Shown here one piece after another: positions 1 to 62,600 of a stretch of DNA of 64,000 nt. The translations under genes and the position numbers were made by a program. Each line of letters opens with the position of its first letter. The stretch's first letter is position 1. The notes beneath the pieces are model-generated. The model was not told the DNA's origin. It ran no database searches and saw only the letters and a list, made by a program, of their open reading frames with translations. Source of the stretch: Octopus vulgaris (lineage: Eukaryota); NCBI GenBank assembly GCA_951406725.2, contig OX597815.1, forward strand, positions 90,582,001 through 90,646,000, given 5' to 3'.

Positions 1-240
1 GAAAATATATTCACAGAGTAATACCGATTTAGCTATGCATACGATTAAATTTCCTATTATATGATACTCTTGTTAATATGTAGTCTCGTTAATAATTCTT
101 GGGTGGAGGAGTATAGTTCGTTTGGGACAAATAAATATCGAAATTAAGTTTCTTTCTCGTCTGTTGTCAAAGATTAGTTTAAATATGCTAATAGATATTT
201 TCACTTATACCCAATTTAAAAGCAAATGCTTGCTTAAGTA

Positions 241-643
241 CATTGTTGTTAACGCAAGGTTTCGACTGATATACCCTCCAACCTTCATCAGGTGTTTCCT
301 AAGGTGTTTTTCGATGTCATTATTATTATTACTATTATTCAGGTCAATGCCCGGAATCGAACTCAGAATCTTGGGGTTAGTACCCCGCGCTCTTAACCAC
401 TACGCCATATGCCCGTGGGCAATTATGAAGTGCATTTTAGGGCTTATAAATCTAATATTTTCCTATCCTTCCTTAATACTGCTTCGCATATGCTATTCAT
501 ATCTGCACTCGGTCTGCTTAGGAGGTTGTTGTGCCCTAACATATGTGCTCCTTCTTTTAGTTTTCGTATTGACAAATATCCATCAAAAGTTATTAATGTA
601 AATAATGTCCATAATTTCTCATCTCTTAAATATAGAACTGTAA
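241..643 (-). mobile_element. Short non-coding element: tRNA-like head, (AAT)n, hammerhead motif, inverted terminal tail (copy 1)
   Basis: The minus strand has an A box TGGCGTAGTGGTT (395-407), a B box GAGTTCGATTCC (353-364), an (AAT)n tract, then CTGATGA...GAAA. Bases 571-640 match the reverse complement of the tail at 61438-61508. An 11-bp direct repeat TTGCTTAAGTA lies at 230-240 and 644-654. Confidence 0.8.
251..296 (-). ncRNA. Minimal type-I hammerhead ribozyme motif (slightly decayed)
   Basis: Minus strand: aacac CTGATGA a ggttg gagggtatat cagtc GAAA cctt gcgtt. Stem I is aacac/gcgtt and stem II is ggttg/cagtc. Confidence 0.65.
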
Positions 644-654
644 TTGCTTAAGTA

Positions 655-7928: not shown

Positions 7929-8069
<141 letters not shown>

Positions 8070-8106
8070 AAAAAAGGTTTGAAAATGCAATTTAAACGAT
8101 GTTTAT

Positions 8107-8151
8107 TTACTTAACCGGTTTCACTCTTTGGTAAATGATTGTCAAAAGTAA
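8107..8151 (-). ncRNA. Hammerhead-like motif, U3-A8 variant (left inverted arm)
   Basis: Reverse complement of 12278-12322. Confidence 0.55.
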
Positions 8152-8179
8152 CATTTAAGGAAACATTGAATAATATGGG

Positions 8180-8305
8180 TTCAAAAAAAGTTTTTTACAT
8201 AACTGTCACATTGAATATTATGCATTCAAAAAAGTTTTTTACATAATTGTCACATTGGATATTATGAATTCAAAAATGTTTTTTATACATAATTGTCACA
8301 TTACA
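8180..8305. repeat. ~41-bp tandem repeat (3 copies) inside the PLE tail, mirrored at ~12135-12258
   Basis: TTCAAAAAAGTTTTTTACATAATTGTCACATTG repeated. Confidence 0.85.
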
Positions 8306-9167
8306 TGTATAAATATAGTGTTTGGTAACAGAGAAGTTCAATAGTGTGATGAGAATATTTGGGAAAATTTGGCAGAAAAGGATAAAACAAATATATTATT
8401 GGGAATTGGTTGCGTTAATTATTGGTTGTCGCAAATTGTCACATTACATGTATATATATACAGTCTTTGGTATATATATACAGCCTTTTGACAGCAAAAA
8501 TTAAAATGGATTTTTTATACATCTCAGGATATTTTAAGTTCAAGGCGAGAATATGTTTTTACTGACCTGTCGGTATTAGCAGAAAGGCTGAACTGAGAGA
8601 AAAGAAGAAGTAGCCAATGTGGTGTATACTTCCCCTTTATGCATGAATGATTTTGGGGTTATCAGGAGGTTAGTATGCGGGTGTGAATAGATGTGTCCGT
8701 GCCTGCTGGTCAGATAGCGTCTGTTTGTCACACACATATATATATACACACACACACACACACAACAACACACACACACATAGTATACAAACACACACCA
8801 CATACAAACAACACACACACACACACACAGAACACACACACCCACACACAACGCACCCACATATATCACATATACACACAGCACACAAATATAACATGTA
8901 TCTATATATAATATACACAGATATATAACACACATATACACACACAACACACACACATACACACACACACACACAACACACGCACACATACATACATAAT
9001 ATAAATATCACACAAATACACCTAGCATATATATACACATACAATACACACATACAGCATGTAAATAATACACATACACAATATATGCATGCAATATACA
9101 TACGCAATACATACATATAATATATATATATATATAGACAATGCATATACATATATACATATATACA

Positions 9168-10174
9168 CAAACTTCCAAAACCTTATCAACAGTGTAAATA
9201 ACAACATTCAATTCACAATGGAATATAGTCAGGACCAACTCCCTTTTCTTGACATCCTAATCATTAAAAAAGGCGTCAACATTGAAACTGACATCCATTA
9301 CAAACCCATTGACTCTAAACAATACCTTCTATTCACCTCCAATCACCCAAAACACACAAAGACAAATATCCCCTTCAACCTAGCGAGAAGAATCTGCACT
9401 ATTGTCTCAAATGACACAACACGAAATAGAAGACTCCGGGAACTAAGGGCAATTCTTCTCGAAAGACATTACCCGGCATCACTAGTAGACAACGGAATAG
9501 AACGGGCCAAATCAATCAACATTCAAGACCTTCGAAAACCCAAACACATCCACAGTACAGTAAATAGCCTCCCCTATCTCTCAACACACAACCCAAGGAA
9601 TGCAGAAGCTTACACTATTATATACAACAACATTCCACAACTAAATCAAGACCCACGCCTGAAAAAAATACTGGCAGCTCATAAAATAATAAAAAGTAAG
9701 AGACAACCTAAATCCCTAAAAAACCTCCTCACCAACGCAAAATTACACAACACAAACCCACCGCCCACCATCAAAAAATGTGGTCGCCCCAACTGCAAGA
9801 CCTGCATCTACCTCATTGAGGGATCGTCGTACAAGTTCCACTCGGGACACACATTCATCATAAAAAATAATTTCACGTGCGCATCAAAAAATTTACTCTA
9901 CGTCATAAGGTGTGAAGGATGCCACGAAGACTACATAGGGCAAACGAGCCTTACCCTCAGAGAAAGAATGACAGTTCACCGACAACAACTGAGGGACCCC
10001 TCCACAAGACAGATACCACTGAGTGGACACTTAGACCTTTGTGCACACAATAAGTCCCCCAAATTCTTAGTCTTCCCACTATACCAATGATCGGACAACA
10101 CCACAGACCAAACACGAATAAATAAGGAAATTAATCTTATTCAAAAATACAGACCACAACTAAACATACTCTAA
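9168..10174 (+). pseudogene. PLE polyprotein C-terminal part: RT thumb, Cys-rich linker, GIY-YIG endonuclease (one in-frame TGA at 10088-10090)
   Basis: IQFTME..LPFLD, TDIHYKP..QYL.F.S.HP, CGRPNCKTC, NLLYVIRCEGCHEDYIGQT...RERM..H. After the TGA the frame continues SDNTTDQTRINKEINLIQKYRPQLNIL*. Confidence 0.92.
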
Positions 10175-10329
10175 CATACCCCCTGGAAACACATCCAGAG
10201 CAAGCACGCAGGGACGCGCGCACGCTCACAGCATATCGTGCGGGTGGGCACATGCGCGCATCGGCACGCACAGGACACACTAGCGGGCATTGACCGCACA
10301 CATACGTGGCATGCACACGCATGCATTAT

Positions 10330-10629
10330 ATATATGTAGGTGATGTATGTGTGTGAGTGTTGTGTGTGTGTGTGTATGTGTGCGTGTGTGTGTGTGTGTG
10401 TGCACGTTGTGTGTGCGCGGGTGTATTTATATATGTGTGTGTGTGTGTGCACTGTGTGCGTGTGTGTGTATATGTGTGTGTGCGCGCGCGTTGTGTGTGT
10501 GTGTGTGTGCACGTGTGTATATATGTGTGTGTGTGTGTGCACTGTGTGCGGGTGTGTGTGTATGTGTGTGTGTGTGTGTGTGTGAGAGCATTGTGTACGT
10601 GTGTATGTATTTACATGTGTATTTGTTTT

Positions 10630-10666
<37 letters not shown>

Positions 10667-11462
10667 TGTGTGTGTATATGCATGGTATGTGTGTATATGT
10701 TAGTACTTTGTTTGTGTGTGTGTGCGGTATGTAGATATATATTTGAGTGTGTACGCTACAGGTTTGTAATTTGTGTGTGTGGGGGGGTGAATTTTATATA
10801 TATATATATGTGTGTGTATGTGTGTGAAAAAATATATGTATGTGCATGTATGTATGTGTGTATGTGTGTATATATGTATATATATGTATATATATATGTG
10901 TGTGTGTATGTGTGTGTGTGTATATTTATTTGCATGTTTATGTGTGTATAAACATGTACATTATTTGCATGCGCATTGTGTATATGTATATTGTATGTAT
11001 GTGTATTGGATATGTATGTGTACAATTAAGTGTATATATGTGTGTGTATGTGTGCATTGTATATATGTATATTGTAGGTGTGCTATATATGCATGAATAC
11101 ATGTATATGCATTGCGTGTATATATATGTATGCATTGTGTATGTATGTTATGTGCGTGTGTGTGTATATATATATTATATGTGTGCGTACGTGTATGTGT
11201 ATGCATTGTATGTATGTGTGTTGTGTGTATATGTGGTACATCTATGTATGTGTATGTAAACACTATTTATATGTATATATGTATATATGTATATGCATTG
11301 TCTATATATATATATATATTATATGTATGTATTGCGTATGTATATTGCATGCATATATTGTGTATGTGTATTATTTACATGCTGTATGTATGTATTGTAT
11401 GTGTATATATATGCTAGGTGTATTTGTGTGATATTTACATTATGTATGTATGTGTGCGTGTG

Positions 11463-11493
<31 letters not shown>

Positions 11494-11708
11494 GTGTGTG
11501 TATATGTGTGTTATATATCTGTGTATATTATATATAGATACATGTTATATTTGTGTGCTGTGTGTATATGTGATATATGTGGGTGCGTTGTGTGTGGGTG
11601 TGTGTGTTCTGTGTGTGTGTGTGTGTTGTTTGTATGTGGTGTGTGTTTGTATACTATGTGTGTGTGTGTTGTTGTGTGTGTGTGTGTGTATATATATATA
11701 TGTGTGTG
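10330..11708. repeat. Cryptic (TG)/(TA) microsatellite in the PLE 3' UTR
   Basis: ~1.4 kb of degenerate TG/TA repeat, part of it copied into the inverted arm (8728-9167). Confidence 0.95.
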
Positions 11709-12277
11709 ACAAACAGACGCTATCTGACCAGCAGGCACGGACACATCTATTCACACCCGCATACTAACCTCCTGATAACCCCAAAATCATTCATGCATAA
11801 AGGGGAAGTATACACCACATTGGCTACTTCTTCTTTTCTCTCAGTTCAGCCTTTCTGCTAATACCGACAGGTCAGTAAAAACATATTCTCGCCTTGAACT
11901 TAAAATATTCTGAGATGTATAAAAAATCCATTTTAATTTTTGCTGTCAAAAGGCTGTATATATATACCAAAGACTGTATATATATACATGTAATGTGACA
12001 ATTTGCGACAACCAATAATTAACGCAACCAATTCCCAATAATATATTTGTTTTATCCTTTTCTGCCAAATTTTCCCAAATATTCTCATCACACTATTGAA
12101 CTTCTCTGTTACCAAACACTATATTTATACATGTAATGTGACAATTATGTATAAAAAACATTTTGGAATTCATAATATCCAATGTGACAATTATGTAAAA
12201 AACTTTTTTGAATGCATAATATTCAATGTGACAATTATGTAAAAAACTTTTTTTGAACCCATATGTTTCCTTAAATG

Positions 12278-12322
12278 TTACTTTTGACAATCATTTACCA
12301 AAGAGTGAAACCGGTTAAGTAA
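12278..12322 (+). ncRNA. Hammerhead-like motif, U3-A8 variant, at the PLE 3' end
   Basis: ttactt TTGACAA tcatttaccaaagagt GAAA ccggtt aagtaa. Stem I is a perfect 6 bp, stem III is palindromic (AACCGGTT), and stem II is imperfect. Confidence 0.55.
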
Positions 12323-12397
12323 ATAAACATCGTTTAAATTGCATTTTCAAACCTTTTTTCTTATATAATCCCACTCGTGCGATACCCCACAACTCAA

Positions 12398-17251: not shown

Positions 17252-17266
17252 CATTATTATTATTAT

Positions 17267-18166
17267 TTTGTTTTTTTCTTCTTTCTTCAAATTTTCTTCC
17301 GTTTCTTGCCGTGTGTTTTCCATACACCTAGGGCAGAGAGGCTCGTTGTATGCATTCCCAGATTACACATGCAAATTCACAGATAAAATATGTATTTAAA
17401 AATTAATAAATAAATAAATCCATGGATGGATGTTGTTTTCACAGCGATAATGCTCTTCTCACTACATGAGCCGTTTCAGTTAATACGATATTTTGCACTT
17501 CCTGTTGGGATGGTAAGCCTGGAATCATTTTCAAATAGGTTTCAGTACCTTTTTTTTTATCATTCCTAGAGATCCAACAATCACTGGTACTGTAGTCGCC
17601 TTGAGATGCCACATTTTTTCAATTTCTATTAGCAGGTCTTTATATTTACTAATCTTGTCAAATTCTTTCGCCGCTATATTGTGATCGCAAGGGATACTCA
17701 TGTCAATTAATAAACACATCTTTTTTGTCTGATCTTTTATAATAATATCCGGTTTATTAGCTTTTATAGTCTTGTCGGCCTGTACGGGGAAGTCCCATAG
17801 AATCGACACATCTTCTCCCTCAGTCACAGCTTCAGGATGGTGTTTATACCATTTGTCAGCGGTTTTGATTTTATAATACCGACATATTGTCCAATGTAAA
17901 TACTGGCCGACTCTGTCATGTCTTGCTTTATATTCTGCAGGTGCTAAGACTCTACACCCTGAGATTAGGCGGTCTATTGTTTCAATCTCATCGTTACAGA
18001 ATCGGCATTTTGGGTCAGCTCCATTTTTTATCACATTGGCTTGGTAGTTCCGGGTTAATAAGCTTTGATCTTGAGCAGCTAATATGAAACCTTCACTCTC
18101 TGCTTTTAGCCCTGATCTTCGTAACTATTGATGCGTGTGTTTCTGGTCGACATCAGCTTGCTTTCT
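17267..18166 (-). mobile_element. 5'-truncated R4/Dong-type RLE LINE inserted in (TAA)n
   Basis: CRFC..ETID.LISGC zinc knuckle, RHD, KPDII..D RLE motif, then a 3' UTR. (TAT)n lies on both sides (17174-17266, 18167-18272). Confidence 0.9.
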
Positions 18167-21102: not shown

Positions 21103-21320
21103 TATATTTAAGAGATGAGGAATTATGTACGTTATTTACATTATTTACCATTAACGGATATTTGTCCTTATCTTTGTTGTTAACAAAACGTTCGACTTAT
21201 ATACCATCCAGCCTTCATCAGGTGTCTGAGGGACATTTCAAACCTGGGTTCTCATTCCTAAGGTATTCATTGATGTTGTTGTTGTTGTTATTATTATTAT
21301 ACTACTACTACTACTACTAC

Positions 21321-21369
<49 letters not shown>

Positions 21370-21444
21370 TTCACTGCCTGGAATCGAACTCGGAATCTTG
21401 GGGTTAGTAGCCCGCGCTCTTAACCCCTACGCCATATACCCGTG
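21103..21444 (-). mobile_element. tRNA-head + (AAT)n + hammerhead element (copy 2)
   Basis: Homologous to 241-416 and 61438-61925. The hammerhead at 21182-21226 has CTGATGA intact, but GAAA is reduced to GAA. Confidence 0.85.
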
Positions 21445-21445
21445 A

Positions 21446-21508
<63 letters not shown>

Positions 21509-21519
21509 TAATAATAATA

Positions 21520-21947
21520 TAAACGTATCTGTCAAGACCTACCAAAAACTGAGCAAATATAGAGATCTTGAAATAGAAATCAGCAAAATATGGAACCTGA
21601 AAACTAAAACAATACCTGTTGAGGTGTCCTGGGAAAGATAGCAAAAGGGGCTGATTGCTACCTAACTCAGATACCAGGAAACCCAAAAATGGCAGAAATT
21701 CAAAAAATAGTGCTCATGGTAACTGCTCATATCCTACGCAAAATATTTTCTATGTAATTTCAAGTTTTAATACAAACATAATTTTCGTATGTTTTTTTTT
21801 AAACATTCACTAGTACAACACTAAATACAAAACCAAATGTATGGCACACTAGGCATAACAACATGAACTTCCAACCTGTTGTCTCTTGAGGTCTCTGGGT
21901 GAGACTTGGAGCCAACTTGTACAAATATAAAGCAAAAGTCAAACATA
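21520..21947 (+). mobile_element. R4/Dong-type LINE 3' fragment between AAT tracts
   Basis: NVSVKTYQKLSKYRDLEIEISKIWNLKTKTIPV ... QKIVLMVTAHILRK, then a 3' UTR ending in (AAT)n. Confidence 0.88.
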
Positions 21948-22324: not shown

Positions 22325-22417
22325 TACATGCAACTGTTTATGCATACACGTACACATTTTAATTATAAGGTGTACATGCAACTGTTTGTGCATACATGTA
22401 CACATTTTAATTATAAA
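22325..22417. repeat. 48-bp tandem duplication
   Basis: TACATGCAACTGTTT(A/G)TGCATACA(C/T)GTACACATTTTAATTATAA occurs twice. Confidence 0.9.
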
Positions 22418-22569
22418 GCATAAATAATGCTTACACGCGCTCACACGTACACACAGAAAGAAAAACCACGTTACGCGGACGAAAACAAAACAAAAACAAA
22501 GCGATTTTTCACGAACAAACGCAAAAAAGAGAAAATTGGTCACTGAATTTAGAAAGTCACTACACAGTT

Positions 22570-25500
22570 ATGCCCGGAAACATGACTACCAAAAGAAATA
22601 GAGGCGAATTTCGATCTGTAAGTCTTATGCGAGTTCGATATGAACAATATATTAATTCGGAGAATTCAGAAGCGCTGTTTTGTCAAAAAATTGACCCTGT
22701 CACCGTCACAGAAGCGGCGTCTTGTCAAAAAGTTGACTCTGAAAAAATGGACCCCTCTGATGTCGCCGTCAATCATTTAATGAAAACAAGCCAAAAATCA
22801 TGCCGGATCGGTCATCGCCCGGGACAACAAGGACCGCGTTACCCAGTAGGGAACCAGACTGGGGTCGAAAAGTTTGCTGCTGGAACAAACTCTCAAAAAG
22901 ACGATCTACCAGGTGACCAGAACCAGAATACGTCTAACTCTGGACTTGTAGTGACACCACCAAAAACACCACCTAAAGCAAAACGTATAAAATGGACCAG
23001 AGAGGACTATAGAGATGTGTTGAAAGCTTTTTATACAGCCCAACTAAACCCAAACAATAACCTCTGTGTACAAACATACATCTCATGGAGAAATTCAGTA
23101 GGCAATGACGTACGTAGATATATAGACGCAAATAAATTAAGTAATGTACGCAGAGATATAATTAAAAACAAAAGACTAACTGACGCTGAAATTGACAAAA
23201 TTAGGACACTAATAGCTCATGGTAGACCAAAAGAAAACAGCAACAATGTAGACGAAATAGGTAACAGTAGCACAGAAGCCAGTGTACAAGCGGCAAATCA
23301 ACTTCCCAATGGGGAAGTTAAACAAAGAATAGCGAAGACGAGAGATTTGAAAAAAGAGGAGAACGTAGACCTTCCTCAAGAAAACCAAAATAGATATGAC
23401 ATAGAATTTGAGGTGAATAATAGAGAAAAGATTATGGAAGCAAAAGTGGACATTATGAGAGAACTCGGCAAGATTGAGCTCACTGACATGGTTAATAGAG
23501 AACCACTACCAAAGTTTTCAAATGGCACAAGAAATAACAACACAATCATGACATATAACGTTGCCCTAGGACAGATCTTAAGAAATAAGGGGAATGATTT
23601 GACAACCTTAAATAATCTCATTTATTCCACTGCTAAAGTAGTAACTACCCAACTAGGTATTAAGATGACAAAGAAAAAGGCCAGGCATGTCAATGAACCT
23701 CCTAAGTGGAAAGTAGCGATACAAAAAGAGATTGAATCTCTGCGGGCGGATGTTTCAGTTCTCGATGAGCCTGCTAGAGGAGTGAATATTAAGCCGAGAA
23801 AAGCTAGAAAAATCAAGCAAAAATATAAAATCAAAGATCTCATAAACCTCCCTACAACTAAGGAACTGTTGAAACAACGGATACAGTTGAAAGCTCAACG
23901 GCTTAGAAGATATGACAAAAGAAACAAATTTTATCGACAAAATAAATTTTTTAAGACAGATGCAAAGAAATTTTATAGGGAAATTGGCAAAAATAAAATA
24001 CACATAGAAGATCCACCTAAGATTGAGGAAGTGGAGGAGTTCTGGAAGAAGGTATGGAGCAACGAAAAAGAGTTTAATGCTGAGGCTGACTGGATAGAAC
24101 GTGAGAAAGAGAGACTGGATGAACTTGAAGAACAGAAATGGGAAGCAATAGGAATAGAGGAGCTAAGGTGTGTCCTTAGGAAGGCTCATAAATGGAAAAC
24201 CCCAGGACTGGATCGGATCCCTAACTTCTGGCTGAATTGTTTGACAGAGGTACACGAACATCTCGCTGCATCTCTGTCTGATGTCATTCAGAACCCAGAG
24301 CAAATACCTGCTTGGCTGACTGAAGGAACCACCTACCTATTACCTAAAACCGAAGACACAAAAAACCGAAAGAATTACCGGCCAATAACATGTCTCAACA
24401 CCACCTACAAAATCCTCACATCCATAATAACGGAGAGAATGTACGCTTTCCTTGAACAAAATTCTATCCTTCCACAAGCTCAAAAAGGTTGTAAAAGAAA
24501 CTCTTATGGGTGCAAAGACCAATTGTTCATAAACAGAATGATTGTAGAGAATTGCCGGAGCAAAAACAAAAACCTGAGTATGGCATGGATAGACTACAGG
24601 AAAGCGTATGACAGTGTCCCACATAAATGGATACTCAAGGCCCTTCAGATATACAAGATCTCCCCTGTCGTCTCAAAATTCTTAGAGAATAGCATGACCA
24701 TGTGGAACACACGTCTCTTTCTAAGCCATAGTAATGGGATGAGCCAGTCCAACAGCATCAACATCAAACGAGGCATCTTTCAAGGTGACTCCCTCTCTCC
24801 ATTACTTTTTTGCATGGCACTGATCCCACTCTCAAACGAATTGGATAGTGCCAGATATGGGTACATAGTTTTTAGCAAGTTAATAAACCACCTTTTTTAT
24901 ATGGACGATCTAAAGCTGTTTGCCAAGAATGACCAAGAGCTAGAAGTGCTGCTAACAACTGTTAAAGAGTTTAGCAATGATATCGGAATGGATTTTGGCC
25001 TTGATAAGTGTGCTAAAGCAACTTTTGTAAGAGGCAAGCTCAGGCAAACAGCTTCTGTTAAATTAGATATTGACACTACCATCAAGGAACTTGACCCACA
25101 AGAAAGTTACAAATACCTAGGAATCAACGAAGGAGATGGTATACATCATGCTACTATGAAGGAAAAAATAAGAAAGGAGTACTATAGGAGAATAAGGCTT
25201 GTACTGAAGACTGAATTCAACTCCAAAAATTGCATTGAGGCCATTAACACCCTGGCACTCCAGTAGTCCAGTACAGGTTTAACATCATTAACTGGAACCT
25301 TACGGAACTCCAACGCTTGGACAGGAAGACAAGAAAGTTACTGACATCCAGGAGCATGCACCACCCTAAGGCAGATGTAGACCGCTTGTACCTACCTAGA
25401 AGAAGCGGGGGGAGAGGAATGATGCAATTGGAGCTGTGCTATAAGACCTCTACTGTAGGAATGAACAGGTACCTATCTAGTACAAAAGACTGGATGCTGC

Positions 25501-26455
25501 GACTTGTGTGTGAACACGAAAGCAGCAAAAAGCTGCATTCTATTGTCAAGGAAGCTTATAAGTTCGAAAGGGAACTAGGCATTAACCTTGAATCAGGTGA
25601 AGAGCCAGAAACCACTGCTACCAAGCAAGCAAAGCGAATCATGCAGACTGCAAAAAAGAATGGGCAGAATCAAATTGAGAGGCGGTGGAGCCAGAAGCCC
25701 CTGCATGGACAATACATTCTCCGAAGCCAAAATGCTGATGTAGACCAAGCAACAACCCATCAGTGGCTGAAGAGTTCTGGATTGAAAGCAGAGACTGAAG
25801 GCTTCATAATGGCAGCACAAGATCAAAGCTTGTTTACCAGAAATTACCAGGCTAACGTTCTCCGAAACGGTACTGACCCTAAATGCAGATTCTGTGACAC
25901 ATTTGACGAAACAATAGACCATCTCGTTTCGGGATGTCCTGTGCTGACACCAAACGAATACAAAAATCGCCACGATAGGGTAGGACAGTATATACATTGG
26001 AAGATATGTATGTAAACACTACAAATCCGACACTCCTGCTAACTGGTATGAACACCATCCTCAGCCAGTTGTTGAAGGTAAAGATGTCACCATCCTCTGG
26101 GATTTTCCAGTCAACACTGACAGAACGATCAAGGCTAATCGACCAGACATAATTGTTAAAGACAGGGAAGAAAATACCTGCAGACTAATAGAAGTAAGCG
26201 TCCCCACTGATAAAAATGTATCTGTCAAGGAATTTGACAAACTTAGTAAATATAAGGACCTGGAAATCGAAATACAGAGGATGTGGAATCTTAAAACAAA
26301 AACTGTTCCTGTTATTGTAGGTGCCCTAGGTATGATAAAAAAAGGGATGTCAGAAACACCTAGACAATATCCCTGGAAAACCACGTCTCAAGGAAATCCA
26401 AAAGATTGTGCTAACAAGTACTGCCCACATCCTTAGAAAAACCCTATCAATGTAA
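22570..26455 (+). pseudogene. R4/Dong polyprotein (RT, CCHC zinc knuckle, RLE) with 3 frameshifts (~25260, ~26010, ~26345)
   Basis: KNYRPITCL, WIDYRKAYDSVPH, GIFQGDSLSP, HLFYMDDLKL, YKYLG; CRFCDTFDETIDHLVSGC; RHD; NRPDIIV..IEV; ends HILRKTLSM*. Confidence 0.93.
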
Positions 26456-26694: not shown

Positions 26695-27240
26695 CTGTGG
26701 GACTTTCCAGTACATACAGCCCGAACCATCGGGGCCAATAAACCAGATATTGTTGTGAAAGACCAAAACAATAAAGTTTGCTTATTGATCGACATGAGCA
26801 TCCCCTGTGATCATAATATCCCAGCGAAAGAGTTTGACAAGCTCAGAAAATATAAAGACCTACTCATTGAAATTGAGAAAATGTGGCATCTCAAGGCGGT
26901 TACAATACCAGTGATCGTAGGAGCACTAGGAATGATCAAGAAGGGAACCGAAAATTATATGAGAATGATCCCTGGCTAACCATCCCTGCAATAAGTGCAA
27001 AAGATCGTCTTAACTGGTACATCACATGTATTGAGAAGAGCATTGTCGATGTGAGAATTGTTGCTGCTCATGTATTTTAATTTAACTTAGGAAAAAAAAA
27101 AAAAAAAAAATGAACGAACTATTGAGTTTGGTTTAATGGCCTACCGATGTATACTATGAGTTTCTTTGCCCTAGGAGTCGGGAAGACACTCGGCAAGAAA
27201 TGGAAGCAAATTTGAAAGAAGAAAAAAAAAAAAAAAAAAA
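26691..27240 (+). mobile_element. R4/Dong-type LINE 3' fragment (family related to 17267-18166)
   Basis: ILWDFPVHTARTIGANKPDIVVKDQ..LIDMSIPCD..., then a 3' UTR, poly(A) and (AAT)n. Confidence 0.9.
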
Positions 27241-27283
<43 letters not shown>

Positions 27284-27478
27284 TAATAATAATAATAATA
27301 ATAACAATAACAACAATAATAATAATAACAACAACAACAACATCTAAAAATACCTTAGGAATGAGAACCCAGGTTCGAAATTTCCCCAAGACACCTGATG
27401 AAGGCTGCAGGGTATATCAGCCGAAACATTGTATTAACAACAAACAAGATGACAAATATTTGTCAATTGTAAGTAATG
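27241..27478 (+). mobile_element. (AAT)n + hammerhead tail of the tRNA-head element (copy 3)
   Basis: AACATCTAAAAATACCTTAGGAATGAGAACCCAGGTTCGAAATTTCCCCAAGACACCTGATGAAGGCTG... is the reverse complement of copies 2 and 4. Confidence 0.88.
27390..27435 (+). ncRNA. Minimal type-I hammerhead ribozyme motif
   Basis: gacac CTGATGA a GGCTG cagggtatat CAGCC GAAA catt gtatt, with a perfect 5-bp stem II. Confidence 0.75.
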
Positions 27479-27529
27479 AACTAATTAAATGTCTTGTAAT
27501 ATAGAAATAGATAGAATTATATGCCGCTA

Positions 27530-60930: not shown

Positions 60931-61437
60931 AAAATTCTGCTCAATACCACATATTTGCTTGTCAGTTGTTTGACCCTAACCAGTTAAGCACTCCCTTGGT
61001 GGCTGACGCTATGTGCATCTCTGATCATGAGCAGAAGTAGTGGGGATGCATCATAACAGTGTGTTGAAAGGAATTATTAGAGGTTTTGATAATTGACATT
61101 TGGAAACATGGGTGGTTCGTTCAAAATCCTTAAGCAATCCTTATTCAGTGACATTTTGAGTGGAATGGGCTACTCGACCAGAAGAAAATTCTAACTGGGC
61201 CCCACCTGCAAGGTCATGCGCTGTTTATCTTGATATGAGATAATCATCTCGCACTCATATGGTTGTGATGCATATGCCTAGTGTACCCTTATCAGACGGG
61301 TAATCATGATGGGTATACTGGGCTTCGTATATTTTACCCCAGTGTCACTTTGATGGCAAGCACTGCTCTCTCACTCAATAATAATGTTGTTTTCATTTAG
61401 GAACGTGATCGGGTTTTTTCTGACAATGCGTTCCATT

Positions 61438-61925
<488 letters not shown>

Positions 61926-62600
61926 TCCTGTCAAAGTGATGCAGCAACTGTGTGAAGTAGCTTCTCCCTGGACGGAAGCAATGTTGTTTTCATTTAGGAA
62001 CGTTCCATTGTCTTGTCAACATGTGAGGTCAGAGAGATGGGCCTGTAGTTTTTAGCATCTGCTGTGCTCCCGCCTTTATGGACAGGACATATTATTCCCT
62101 CTTATAGCATGTTTGGAAGTTTACTACATGCAAGAAAACTCTGAAATAGTATCTGCAGTGGCTTTGCAAGAGCCTTTTTACATGTATTTAAGGGAACAGC
62201 CAGACGTTCATCTGGGCCTGTTGCTGAGTTTGAGTTCATCTCATCAATGGCCGATATTACATCCTCTTCTGCTGTGTTGATGTAATTGATGGTTGTATAT
62301 TTTCGGAATAGATTCGTTACATTGAAAAACACCTTCGGCTTGTTTATTTGCATATTTCCGGTGGAGAAGTGAAAACACTTCCGAATTGTTTATTTAGTGC
62401 TTCACTTATCTTCCCCGGGTCAGCAGTTAGTGAGCTGTTTTTACCAAATAGTGACCATATATTATAGCGTACTGAGGGAGACCCATCTGCCAACGTGTAG
62501 AAGGCTTTAGGATTTCCTTTTATATTTCTATCTTCTCTTTCTTTTTCATGCGAGATTTTTGAGTTTATTTTCTGTCTCGAAGATTTCCTCTGTCAGGTGA
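61926..62600 (-). mobile_element. Decayed CR1/L2-group LINE, RT N-terminal fragment
   Basis: NSATGPD..LNTCKKALAKPLQILF, ICPVHKGGSTADAKNYRPISLTSHVDKTMER. Confidence 0.78.

What the first reader, a model, noticed from the sequence alone, without database searches (positions are those of the whole stretch)
241..643. Non-coding mobile element joining a tRNA-like Pol III head to a hammerhead ribozyme, with an inverted terminal tail
Seen: four copies (241-643, 21103-21444, 27241-27478, 61438-61925) share one layout, though some are truncated. It runs tRNA-like head (A box TGGCGTAGTGG, B box GAGTTCGATTCC), then (AAT)n, then gacac-CTGATGA-a-GGCTG..CAGCC-GAAA-cgtt-gtgtt, then a ~100-nt tail. Copy 1 has the last ~70 nt of the tail inverted upstream of the head (571-640) and an 11-bp target-site-like duplication. 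Known: minimal type-I hammerheads with a tiny palindromic stem III mark Penelope-like element pseudo-LTRs and are thought to act as dimers. Schistosome Sm-alpha and newt satellite 2 are precedents for short ribozyme-bearing repeats. Inference: this is a SINE-like family transcribed by Pol III, processed by self-cleavage and mobilised by PLE RT/GIY-YIG rather than by a LINE. I do not know it as described in cephalopods, though it may sit unclassified in repeat libraries.
Basis: partly seen in the sequence, partly recalled or inferred. Interest (0 to 1): 0.85.

Follow-up and report, generated by a model that had tools for sequence, protein, structure and literature searches.

The report
Penelope retrotransposon with captured tRNA promoter
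These repeats are not a separate SINE but the terminal repeats of a protein-coding Penelope-type retrotransposon, which unusually carry a tRNA-like segment where most copies begin, so the element is likely transcribed by RNA polymerase III.

Summary
The repeats are real, but they are the pseudo-LTR (pLTR) of an autonomous Penelope/Poseidon-type element, not a stand-alone SINE. Copy 1 still carries the end of the endonuclease ORF. In 19 of 20 RT-selected loci that keep the ORF end, the head follows it directly. The "tail" is the ORF's own 5' coding end. The minimal hammerhead, inverted 5' partner, two-site tail and target-site duplications are all published PLE traits. About 63,000 loci genome-wide (29,000-120,000).

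What I did not find in print is the tRNA-Arg/SINE-like head with intact A and B boxes inside the pLTR of an autonomous PLE. Copies start there: 31 of 36 unselected segments stop within -25..+20 of tRNA +1 (20% expected), with a hard edge at -6/-7. The ~2.6-kb sense strand has no shared TTTT (shuffle P about 0.01), whereas 52 of 53 other PLE ORFs have one. Likely mechanism: Pol III starts at the head, and the PLE RT primes internally at the tail, giving SINE-sized copies in cis. Pol III use and ribozyme cleavage are untested, and a Pol II start is not excluded.

The parts
230..240 (.). Target-site duplication of copy 1 (TTGCTTAAGTA), left copy
243..317 (-). Copy 1: ORF-start region with minimal hammerhead (core 285-291); about 36 nt deleted; ends before the tail
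319..339 (-). Copy 1: (AAT)n tract
340..414 (-). Copy 1: tRNA-Arg/SINE-like head; tRNA +1 at 414, A box 397-407, B box 353-362
415..420 (-). Six-base leader; G at 420 (position -6) is the predicted transcription start, the upper edge of 5' ends in other copies
   Evidence: inference
444..570 (-). Copy 1: last 41 codons and stop (444-446) of the Penelope RT/GIY-YIG ORF, 5'-truncated
   Evidence: 43% identity to the C-terminus of PLE protein P0003, E 2e-8
573..643 (+). Copy 1: inverted 5' partner, long tail end
644..654 (.). Target-site duplication of copy 1, right copy
21103..21444 (-). Copy 2: solo pLTR starting at about -3 of the head (head 21367-21441, simple repeats, hammerhead core 21215-21221 with one A of GAAA lost, long tail)
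21439..21518 (+). Head 3' end plus (AAT)n on the opposite strand, likely the stub of copy 2's inverted partner, followed by an RLE-type LINE 3' fragment
   Evidence: inference
27243..27481 (+). Copy 3: (AAT)n, hammerhead (core 27395-27401), short tail end; no head; an RLE-type LINE 3' end lies directly 5'
61438..61925 (-). Copy 4: B-box remnant of head (61903-61925), long (AAT)n, hammerhead (core 61560-61566), long tail

Best explanation
[quoted passage not shown] Shown: the element runs [head-(AAT)n-ATG-hammerhead-tail]-ORF (RT, C-terminal GIY-YIG)-stop-[head-(AAT)n-hammerhead-tail]; copies end at two tail sites; 5' ends pile up at -7..+4 of the head; the sense strand has no shared T4. Inferred: Pol III starts at about G(-6) and reads through hammerhead and tail into the ORF. 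The PLE protein binds the ORF-start region and primes reverse transcription internally at the tail, as shown in vitro for the anole element PAc. Priming at the first tail gives the abundant ~330-nt SINE-sized copies in cis; priming at the downstream tail gives ORF-bearing copies; extension of both nicked strands gives the head-to-head inversions. The hammerhead would cut only as a dimer or with protein help, and uncleaved RNA is likely the main template. The head was likely captured once from a tRNA-Arg-type SINE. Dong/R4-like LINEs likely inserted later into the (AAT)n.
For: PLE identity: ORF end directly upstream of the head in 19 of 20 RT-selected loci that keep the ORF end (10 of 30 lack it). 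RVT_1 E 2.7e-6, below the curated cut-off. Top PDB hit is TERT, E 7.5e-6. C-terminus 34% identical to the Pfam GIY-YIG region of P0069, E 1e-15. Direct 5' pLTRs read in frame into the ORF. Shared flank words of 8 bp or more in 18 of 46 two-ended loci vs 4.4% of mismatched pairings. Summed contig depth falls about 160- to 260-fold at the tail end in all four runs laid (not a copy number).

Start at the head: 31 of 36 segments not selected on head or ORF stop within -25..+20, vs 20% expected from the upstream rate (binomial P 4e-17; segments not fully independent; 25 of 30 per locus). 26 of 30 head-selected loci lack upstream ORF. Upper edge at -6/-7. 3 of 4 ORF-entering copies that reach the 5' part of the head also start there (L069, L277, L289; L087 passes).

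Pol III: consensus A and B boxes at tRNA spacing, cloverleaf lost. No T4 in the column majority of about 2,580 nt; mononucleotide shuffle mean 4.1, P0 0.01. T4 0.55/kb vs 1.82/kb expected in decayed ORF pieces, while A4 and C4 are as expected and G4 is 12 vs 18. 53 other PLE ORFs: 537 observed vs 473 expected, 1 of 53 with none.
Against: No RNA evidence: no listed run is on record as RNA and all are contigs. The T4 test rests on one ancestral sequence. A second-order Markov expectation, or the mild T4 deficit of other retroelement ORFs in this genome (about 0.6 of expected in the dozen I picked by eye), raises P to about 0.06-0.08. The closest metagenome PLE, L184, also has 0 T4 in a 473-aa stretch without any tRNA head. 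One TCTTT lies about 77 nt past the tail. A TATA-like TTTATAAG lies about 28 nt above the 5' edge, and the Drosophila Penelope promoter has Inr/DPE elements (PMC2377424). A short hairpin TGCCC-AC-GGGCA at the edge blurs fold-back junctions. How an uncapped Pol III RNA would be translated is unexplained.
Confidence: 0.65

Rival explanations
1. Ordinary PLE pLTR with a Pol II promoter: the tRNA-like head is a captured passenger that happens to lie just below the start site.
For: The known Penelope promoter lies in the pLTR and has Inr/DPE elements (PMC2377424, passages). TATA-like TTTATAAG about 28 nt upstream of the 5' edge. A capped RNA solves translation. The T4 absence could be chance (P up to about 0.08).
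Against: The start sits where a tRNA-type promoter would put it, 6 nt above +1. A and B boxes are intact while the cloverleaf is not. The TATAA is formed by the ORF's Leu-stop codons and is absent from 5' pLTRs that begin at the head (L069, L277, L289). T4 is not depleted in 53 other PLE ORFs.
Confidence: 0.2
2. The 5' pile-up comes from RNA processing or structure: RNase P cuts a long transcript at the tRNA-like fold, or RT stalls or folds back at the TGCCC-AC-GGGCA hairpin.
For: Many inversions fold back exactly at this hairpin. tRNA-like folds are RNase P substrates (recalled).
Against: Acceptor and T stems are broken (by eye; z +0.7). Many ends lie upstream of +1 (-7..-2) rather than at +1. 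Copies without fold-back show the same edge. Stalling on a tRNA fold would stop RT at its 3' side, but the stop rate inside the head is low (6 in 2,158 nt).
Confidence: 0.08
3. One reading: an independent non-autonomous SINE (tRNA head plus hammerhead plus PLE tail), matured by self-cleavage and mobilised in trans.
For: Short head-start copies greatly outnumber ORF copies (2 of 9 random loci carry the ORF end; depth profile). Sm-alpha is a precedent. Some short copies or short tandems such as L108 could act as secondary sources.
Against: The identical unit is the pLTR of the autonomous element. The same subfamily variants occur in short and ORF-linked copies, with none private to short copies among the 15 sites and one indel tabulated. 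In PAc the protein needs ORF sequence beyond the tail (PMC11167929), which solo copies lack. No sharp 5' peak at the cut site.
Confidence: 0.07

Closest known systems
Penelope/Poseidon PLEs, e.g. PAc (Poseidon_Ac) of Anolis (PMC11167929) and D. virilis Penelope (PMC2377424)
   Same: Single RT plus C-terminal GIY-YIG ORF; pLTRs; hammerhead overlapping the ORF start; two 3' end sites forming a tail; inverted 5'-truncated partner.
   Different: The pLTR holds a tRNA-like head with A/B boxes at which copies start; no shared T4 on the sense strand. The Penelope promoter described has Inr/DPE elements.
Minimal type-I PLE hammerheads (Cervera and de la Pena, PMC4209133)
   Same: 5-bp stem I, bulged base before stem II, G10.1-C11.1, palindromic ACGU in place of stem III; mostly dispersed single motifs from truncated PLEs.
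   Different: Nothing in the ribozyme itself. The predicted cut follows U (GUU), 71 nt after the ATG.
TRIMp3 elements Cassandra, Helenus, Ajax (Kojima, PMC10886601)
   Same: Small-RNA-derived Pol III-type promoter embedded in a terminal repeat, proposed to arise by SINE insertion.
   Different: Those are non-autonomous LTR elements of at most about 1.3 kb, and the paper argues their autonomous partners must use Pol II. Here the repeat belongs to an autonomous PLE with a ~2.5-kb ORF.
Schistosome Sm-alpha/Sj-alpha hammerhead SINEs (review passages, PMC6765202; PMC2770079)
   Same: Apparent Pol III promoter followed by a hammerhead.
   Different: Non-coding and often tandem; no autonomous partner sharing the whole unit was described in the passages read.
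Animal non-LTR retrozymes (bioRxiv 10.64898/2026.07.22.740005; PMC7761336)
   Same: Short hammerhead repeats derived from PLE pLTRs.
   Different: Defined by direct tandem arrays and circular RNA. Here copies are dispersed, solo or inverted; the preprint's text has no occurrence of 'tRNA'.

Membership tests
Penelope-like elements (Penelope/Poseidon clade) | Single ORF with TERT-related RT | tested here: met
   569-aa natural open frame in L053, RVT_1 E 2.7e-6; profile's top PDB hit TERT; full ORF about 825 aa inferred from overlapping loci; no intact full-length copy among those fetched
Penelope-like elements (Penelope/Poseidon clade) | C-terminal GIY-YIG endonuclease with CCHH motif and no Neptune-type CX2-5CxxC linker | tested here: met
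   No direct Pfam hit, but 34% identity, E 1e-15, to the GIY-YIG region of P0069; CxC and two His seen and linker absent by eye; clade not tested with a tree
Penelope-like elements (Penelope/Poseidon clade) | Direct or inverted pseudo-LTRs from partial tandems | tested here: met
Penelope-like elements (Penelope/Poseidon clade) | 30-40-bp optional tail, two 3' end sites inside the ORF start | tested here: met
   Of 137 segments, 69 end at reference 137-149 and 62 at 163-173 (the reference ends at 173 and a 9-nt duplication inflates the short class); depth drop at the long end
Penelope-like elements (Penelope/Poseidon clade) | Minimal type-I hammerhead in the pLTR | tested here: met
   Sequence pattern met in the family majority; cleavage not testable
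tRNA-derived SINE | tRNA-related head with A and B boxes | tested here: met
   Best of 20 host tRNAs (six isotypes only) is Arg, z about 8; 67% identity over 74 nt to a host SINE head
tRNA-derived SINE | 5' end fixed at the head | tested here: met
tRNA-derived SINE | Non-autonomous lineage distinct from its partner, sharing only the 3' end | tested here: not met
   The whole unit, head included, is part of the autonomous element; variants shared
tRNA-derived SINE | Transcribed by RNA polymerase III | not testable with these tools
   Indirect only: boxes, start edge, T4 absence
Non-LTR retrozyme | Direct tandem arrays of hammerhead monomers | tested here: not met
   No direct tandem among 9 random loci; two-unit partial tandems occur (L108, L269, L279, L287)
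Non-LTR retrozyme | Circular RNA | not testable with these tools
   No raw RNA reads available

The most novel reading that the evidence does not exclude
An autonomous, protein-coding retrotransposon whose full-length RNA is made by RNA polymerase III from a captured tRNA/SINE promoter. Its 2.5-kb ORF has been purged of T4 terminators, and internal priming makes it spawn SINE-sized copies of its own pseudo-LTR: LINE and SINE in one element, and a possible route by which hammerhead SINEs such as Sm-alpha arise.
Probability: 0.3. Interest if true: 0.85.

Novelty: new variant of a known kind. Interest (0 to 1): 0.58.

Why it matters
Autonomous retrotransposons are held to need Pol II (or Pol I co-transcription) because Pol III is poorly processive and uncapped; PMC10886601 states this for partners of TRIMp3 elements. 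A PLE with a tRNA-type promoter in its pLTR and a terminator-free ORF is a concrete test case. The sharp 5' edge also gives a genomic footprint of the template RNA's start, which bears on the open question of how PLE solo pLTRs and inversions form. Practically, tens of thousands of loci that pipelines could file as tRNA SINEs are PLE ends.

Tried and rejected
Rfam scan of the window: only simple-repeat miRNA noise; Rfam gathering scan of 20 of 79 related metagenome loci: nothing. The repeat finder was swamped by microsatellites. Relaxed ARAGORN gave noise. One search used a reference in the wrong orientation and was redone. Single-strand folding of hammerhead and head: no significant z-scores.

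Core conservation (2.5% vs 4.1% flank divergence) is confounded by base composition and not used; no stem covariation; the one subfamily change in the core is at the free position N7. No RNA holder listed; guessed-RNA contig runs mirror the DNA pattern and say nothing on expression.

Idea that the RNA ends at TCTTT (L108 junction): single case, and landing sites are scattered and often microhomology-driven. Idea of an amplified short tandem sublineage (junction shared by L279 and L287): only those 2 places in the genome. 5' ends at the hammerhead cut: about threefold higher rate in the 20 nt below the cut but no sharp peak, inconclusive. Search for a sister family with a relative's endonuclease: 150 of 4,866 candidates scored, several are known copies of this family, none fetched. 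No A+B box pair downstream of the longest open frame in any of 79 metagenome PLE loci, though many have little or no 3' flank. The random sample stopped at 400 kb of a planned 800 kb. Earlier scan findings: none.

Full report
OBSERVATION. All four copies are present. Copy 1 (minus strand) reads: 11-bp duplication, inverted long tail (573-643), 41 codons plus stop, head (414-340), (AAT)n, hammerhead region with a deletion, 11-bp duplication. Copy 2 is head-(AAT)n-hammerhead-long tail. Copy 4 keeps only the B-box end of the head. Copy 3 has no head; an RLE-type LINE 3' end lies 5' of its (AAT)n. The same LINE adjacency occurs in L013 and L021, and inside the tract in L025.

WHAT IT IS. A genome search with hammerhead plus tail gave 1,602 first-look candidates, 40 scored. 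Locus L007 carries RT and endonuclease coding sequence directly upstream of the unit, and window 415-570 is the same sequence. Of 30 RT-selected loci, 20 keep the ORF end; 19 have a BLAST hit to the head right after it and the 20th a deleted remnant. Loci selected on the ORF N-terminus show direct 5' repeats (e.g. L069, L087) in which the frame runs through hammerhead and tail into the ORF. [quoted passage not shown] This is the architecture described for Poseidon PAc, where the hammerhead overlaps the ORF start and the tail lies between two internal RT start sites (PMC11167929). 3' ends fall in two clusters. Target duplications of 8-15 bp occur in 18 of 46 two-ended loci vs 4.4% of mismatched pairings. 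Forty systematically spaced 10-kb stretches held 9 loci, about 63,000 genome-wide (95% interval 29,000-120,000). Mean divergence from the majority is 5.5% in 115 segments biased to best hits, roughly 15 million years at the octopus rate quoted in PMC13282606 (inference). The longest open frame seen is 569 aa. The family is present in four runs labelled as organisms A to D.

HAMMERHEAD. Majority: stem I GACAC/GUGUU, CUGAUGA, bulged A, stem II GGCUG/CAGCC, GAAA, palindromic ACGU, predicted cut 71 nt after the ATG. This matches the minimal PLE motif of PMC4209133. No covariation is visible within the family. Of 187 segments about two thirds span the motif from upstream; 5' ends are about three times more frequent just below the cut but without a peak. 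In PAc cleavage needed protein and was dispensable for insertion in vitro.

THE HEAD. It aligns end to end with host tRNA-Arg (best of 20 tRNAs, six isotypes) and about equally well with a host SINE head (67% over 74 nt). A and B boxes fit the consensus; acceptor and T stems do not pair. It is not independent: 29 of 30 head-selected loci have the hammerhead downstream, and 23 of 30 hammerhead-selected loci have a head. Copies start at it: 31 of 36 unselected segments that reach +20 stop between -25 and +20, against 20% expected from the upstream rate of 0.5% per base (25 of 30 per locus). Apart from ORF-linked copies, the boundary almost never extends past -7 or -8. Three of four ORF-entering copies that reach the 5' part of the head start there too. 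Subfamily variants are shared between short and ORF-linked copies, so there is no sign of a separate SINE lineage.

TERMINATORS. No T4 is shared by more than 4 of about 49 copies at any ORF position, and the column majority of head, hammerhead, tail and ORF (about 2,580 nt) has none; shuffles give a mean of 4.1 and none in 1%. T4 is threefold low in decayed ORF pieces; A4 and C4 are as expected. In 53 PLE ORFs of 350 aa or more from 79 metagenome loci (26 shorter ones dropped), T4 is not depleted, and one has none. Against: this is one ancestral sequence; more conservative baselines give P about 0.06-0.08; L184 has none in 473 aa without a head; one TCTTT is present.

MECHANISM. Shown: architecture, end positions, shared variants, T4 absence. 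Inferred: Pol III initiation at about G(-6); internal priming at the first tail giving SINE-sized copies in cis; priming at the downstream tail giving ORF copies; two-strand extension giving inversions (the two arms of one insertion are slightly more alike than random pairs, 8.9% vs 9.9%, P 0.03, n 23). Untested: polymerase identity, cleavage, translation. Confidence is about 0.97 for the PLE pLTR identity and 0.65 for the whole account. The main rival is a Pol II start with a passenger head.

LITERATURE. Read: PMC4209133 (parts 1-2 of 4), PMC11167929 (parts 1-2 of 4), PMC13282606 (parts 1-2 of 3; supplement and repeat library not seen), bioRxiv 10.64898/2026.07.22.740005 (part 1 of 5 and passages). 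Passages only: PMC7761336, PMC8557442, PMC10886601, PMC4758252, PMC8967140, PMC2377424, PMC2770079, PMC6765202. PMC5785218 was not held. Nine searches showed no listing describing a tRNA-derived promoter in a PLE pLTR; most listed papers were seen as title and abstract start only. Subscription journals, Repbase and Dfam were not searchable, so an existing library entry is possible. That Dong/R4 LINEs target (TAA)n, and that T4 ends metazoan Pol III transcription, are recalled.

VERDICT. New variant of a known kind.

Noticed in passing
window 8067-12362: A second PLE family: 341-aa frame at 9065-10087 (+) with PLE similarity and a Neptune-like Cys linker before the endonuclease, a long AC/GT-rich 3' UTR, and inverted repeats of about 1 kb at both ends.
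   Followed up: partly
window 22417-26400: 949-aa open frame with RVT_1 (E 4.5e-31), continued by zf-RVT and an RLE-type C-terminus; likely a Dong/R4- or Hero-like LINE. Further RLE 3' ends at 17263-17605 (-), 21520-21760 and 26850-27240, next to (AAT)n tracts.
   Followed up: partly
window 61383-61406 and 61980-62003: A 24-bp direct repeat brackets copy 4 together with about 30 and 55 nt of extra sequence; origin not resolved.
   Followed up: no
L108:1501-2166: Direct two-unit tandem: head-hammerhead-tail-84 nt of ORF-head-hammerhead-tail, a natural substrate for dimer cleavage. Similar partial tandems in L269, L279, L287.
   Followed up: partly
L184:4190-4600: Closest metagenome PLE (48% best segment) has a minimal hammerhead with the same ACGU palindrome but a T-rich 3' UTR and no tRNA-like head.
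   Followed up: partly
L126:5347-5419; L137:3317-3410; L159:1725-1814; L125:6010-6103: A host tRNA-type SINE whose head resembles the PLE head, a candidate donor.
   Followed up: partly
window 27387-27392: TTTCCCCAAG just before stem I resembles a 3' splice site; in D. virilis Penelope the intron ends at the 5' end of helix I (PMC4209133). No splice evidence was obtainable.
   Followed up: no
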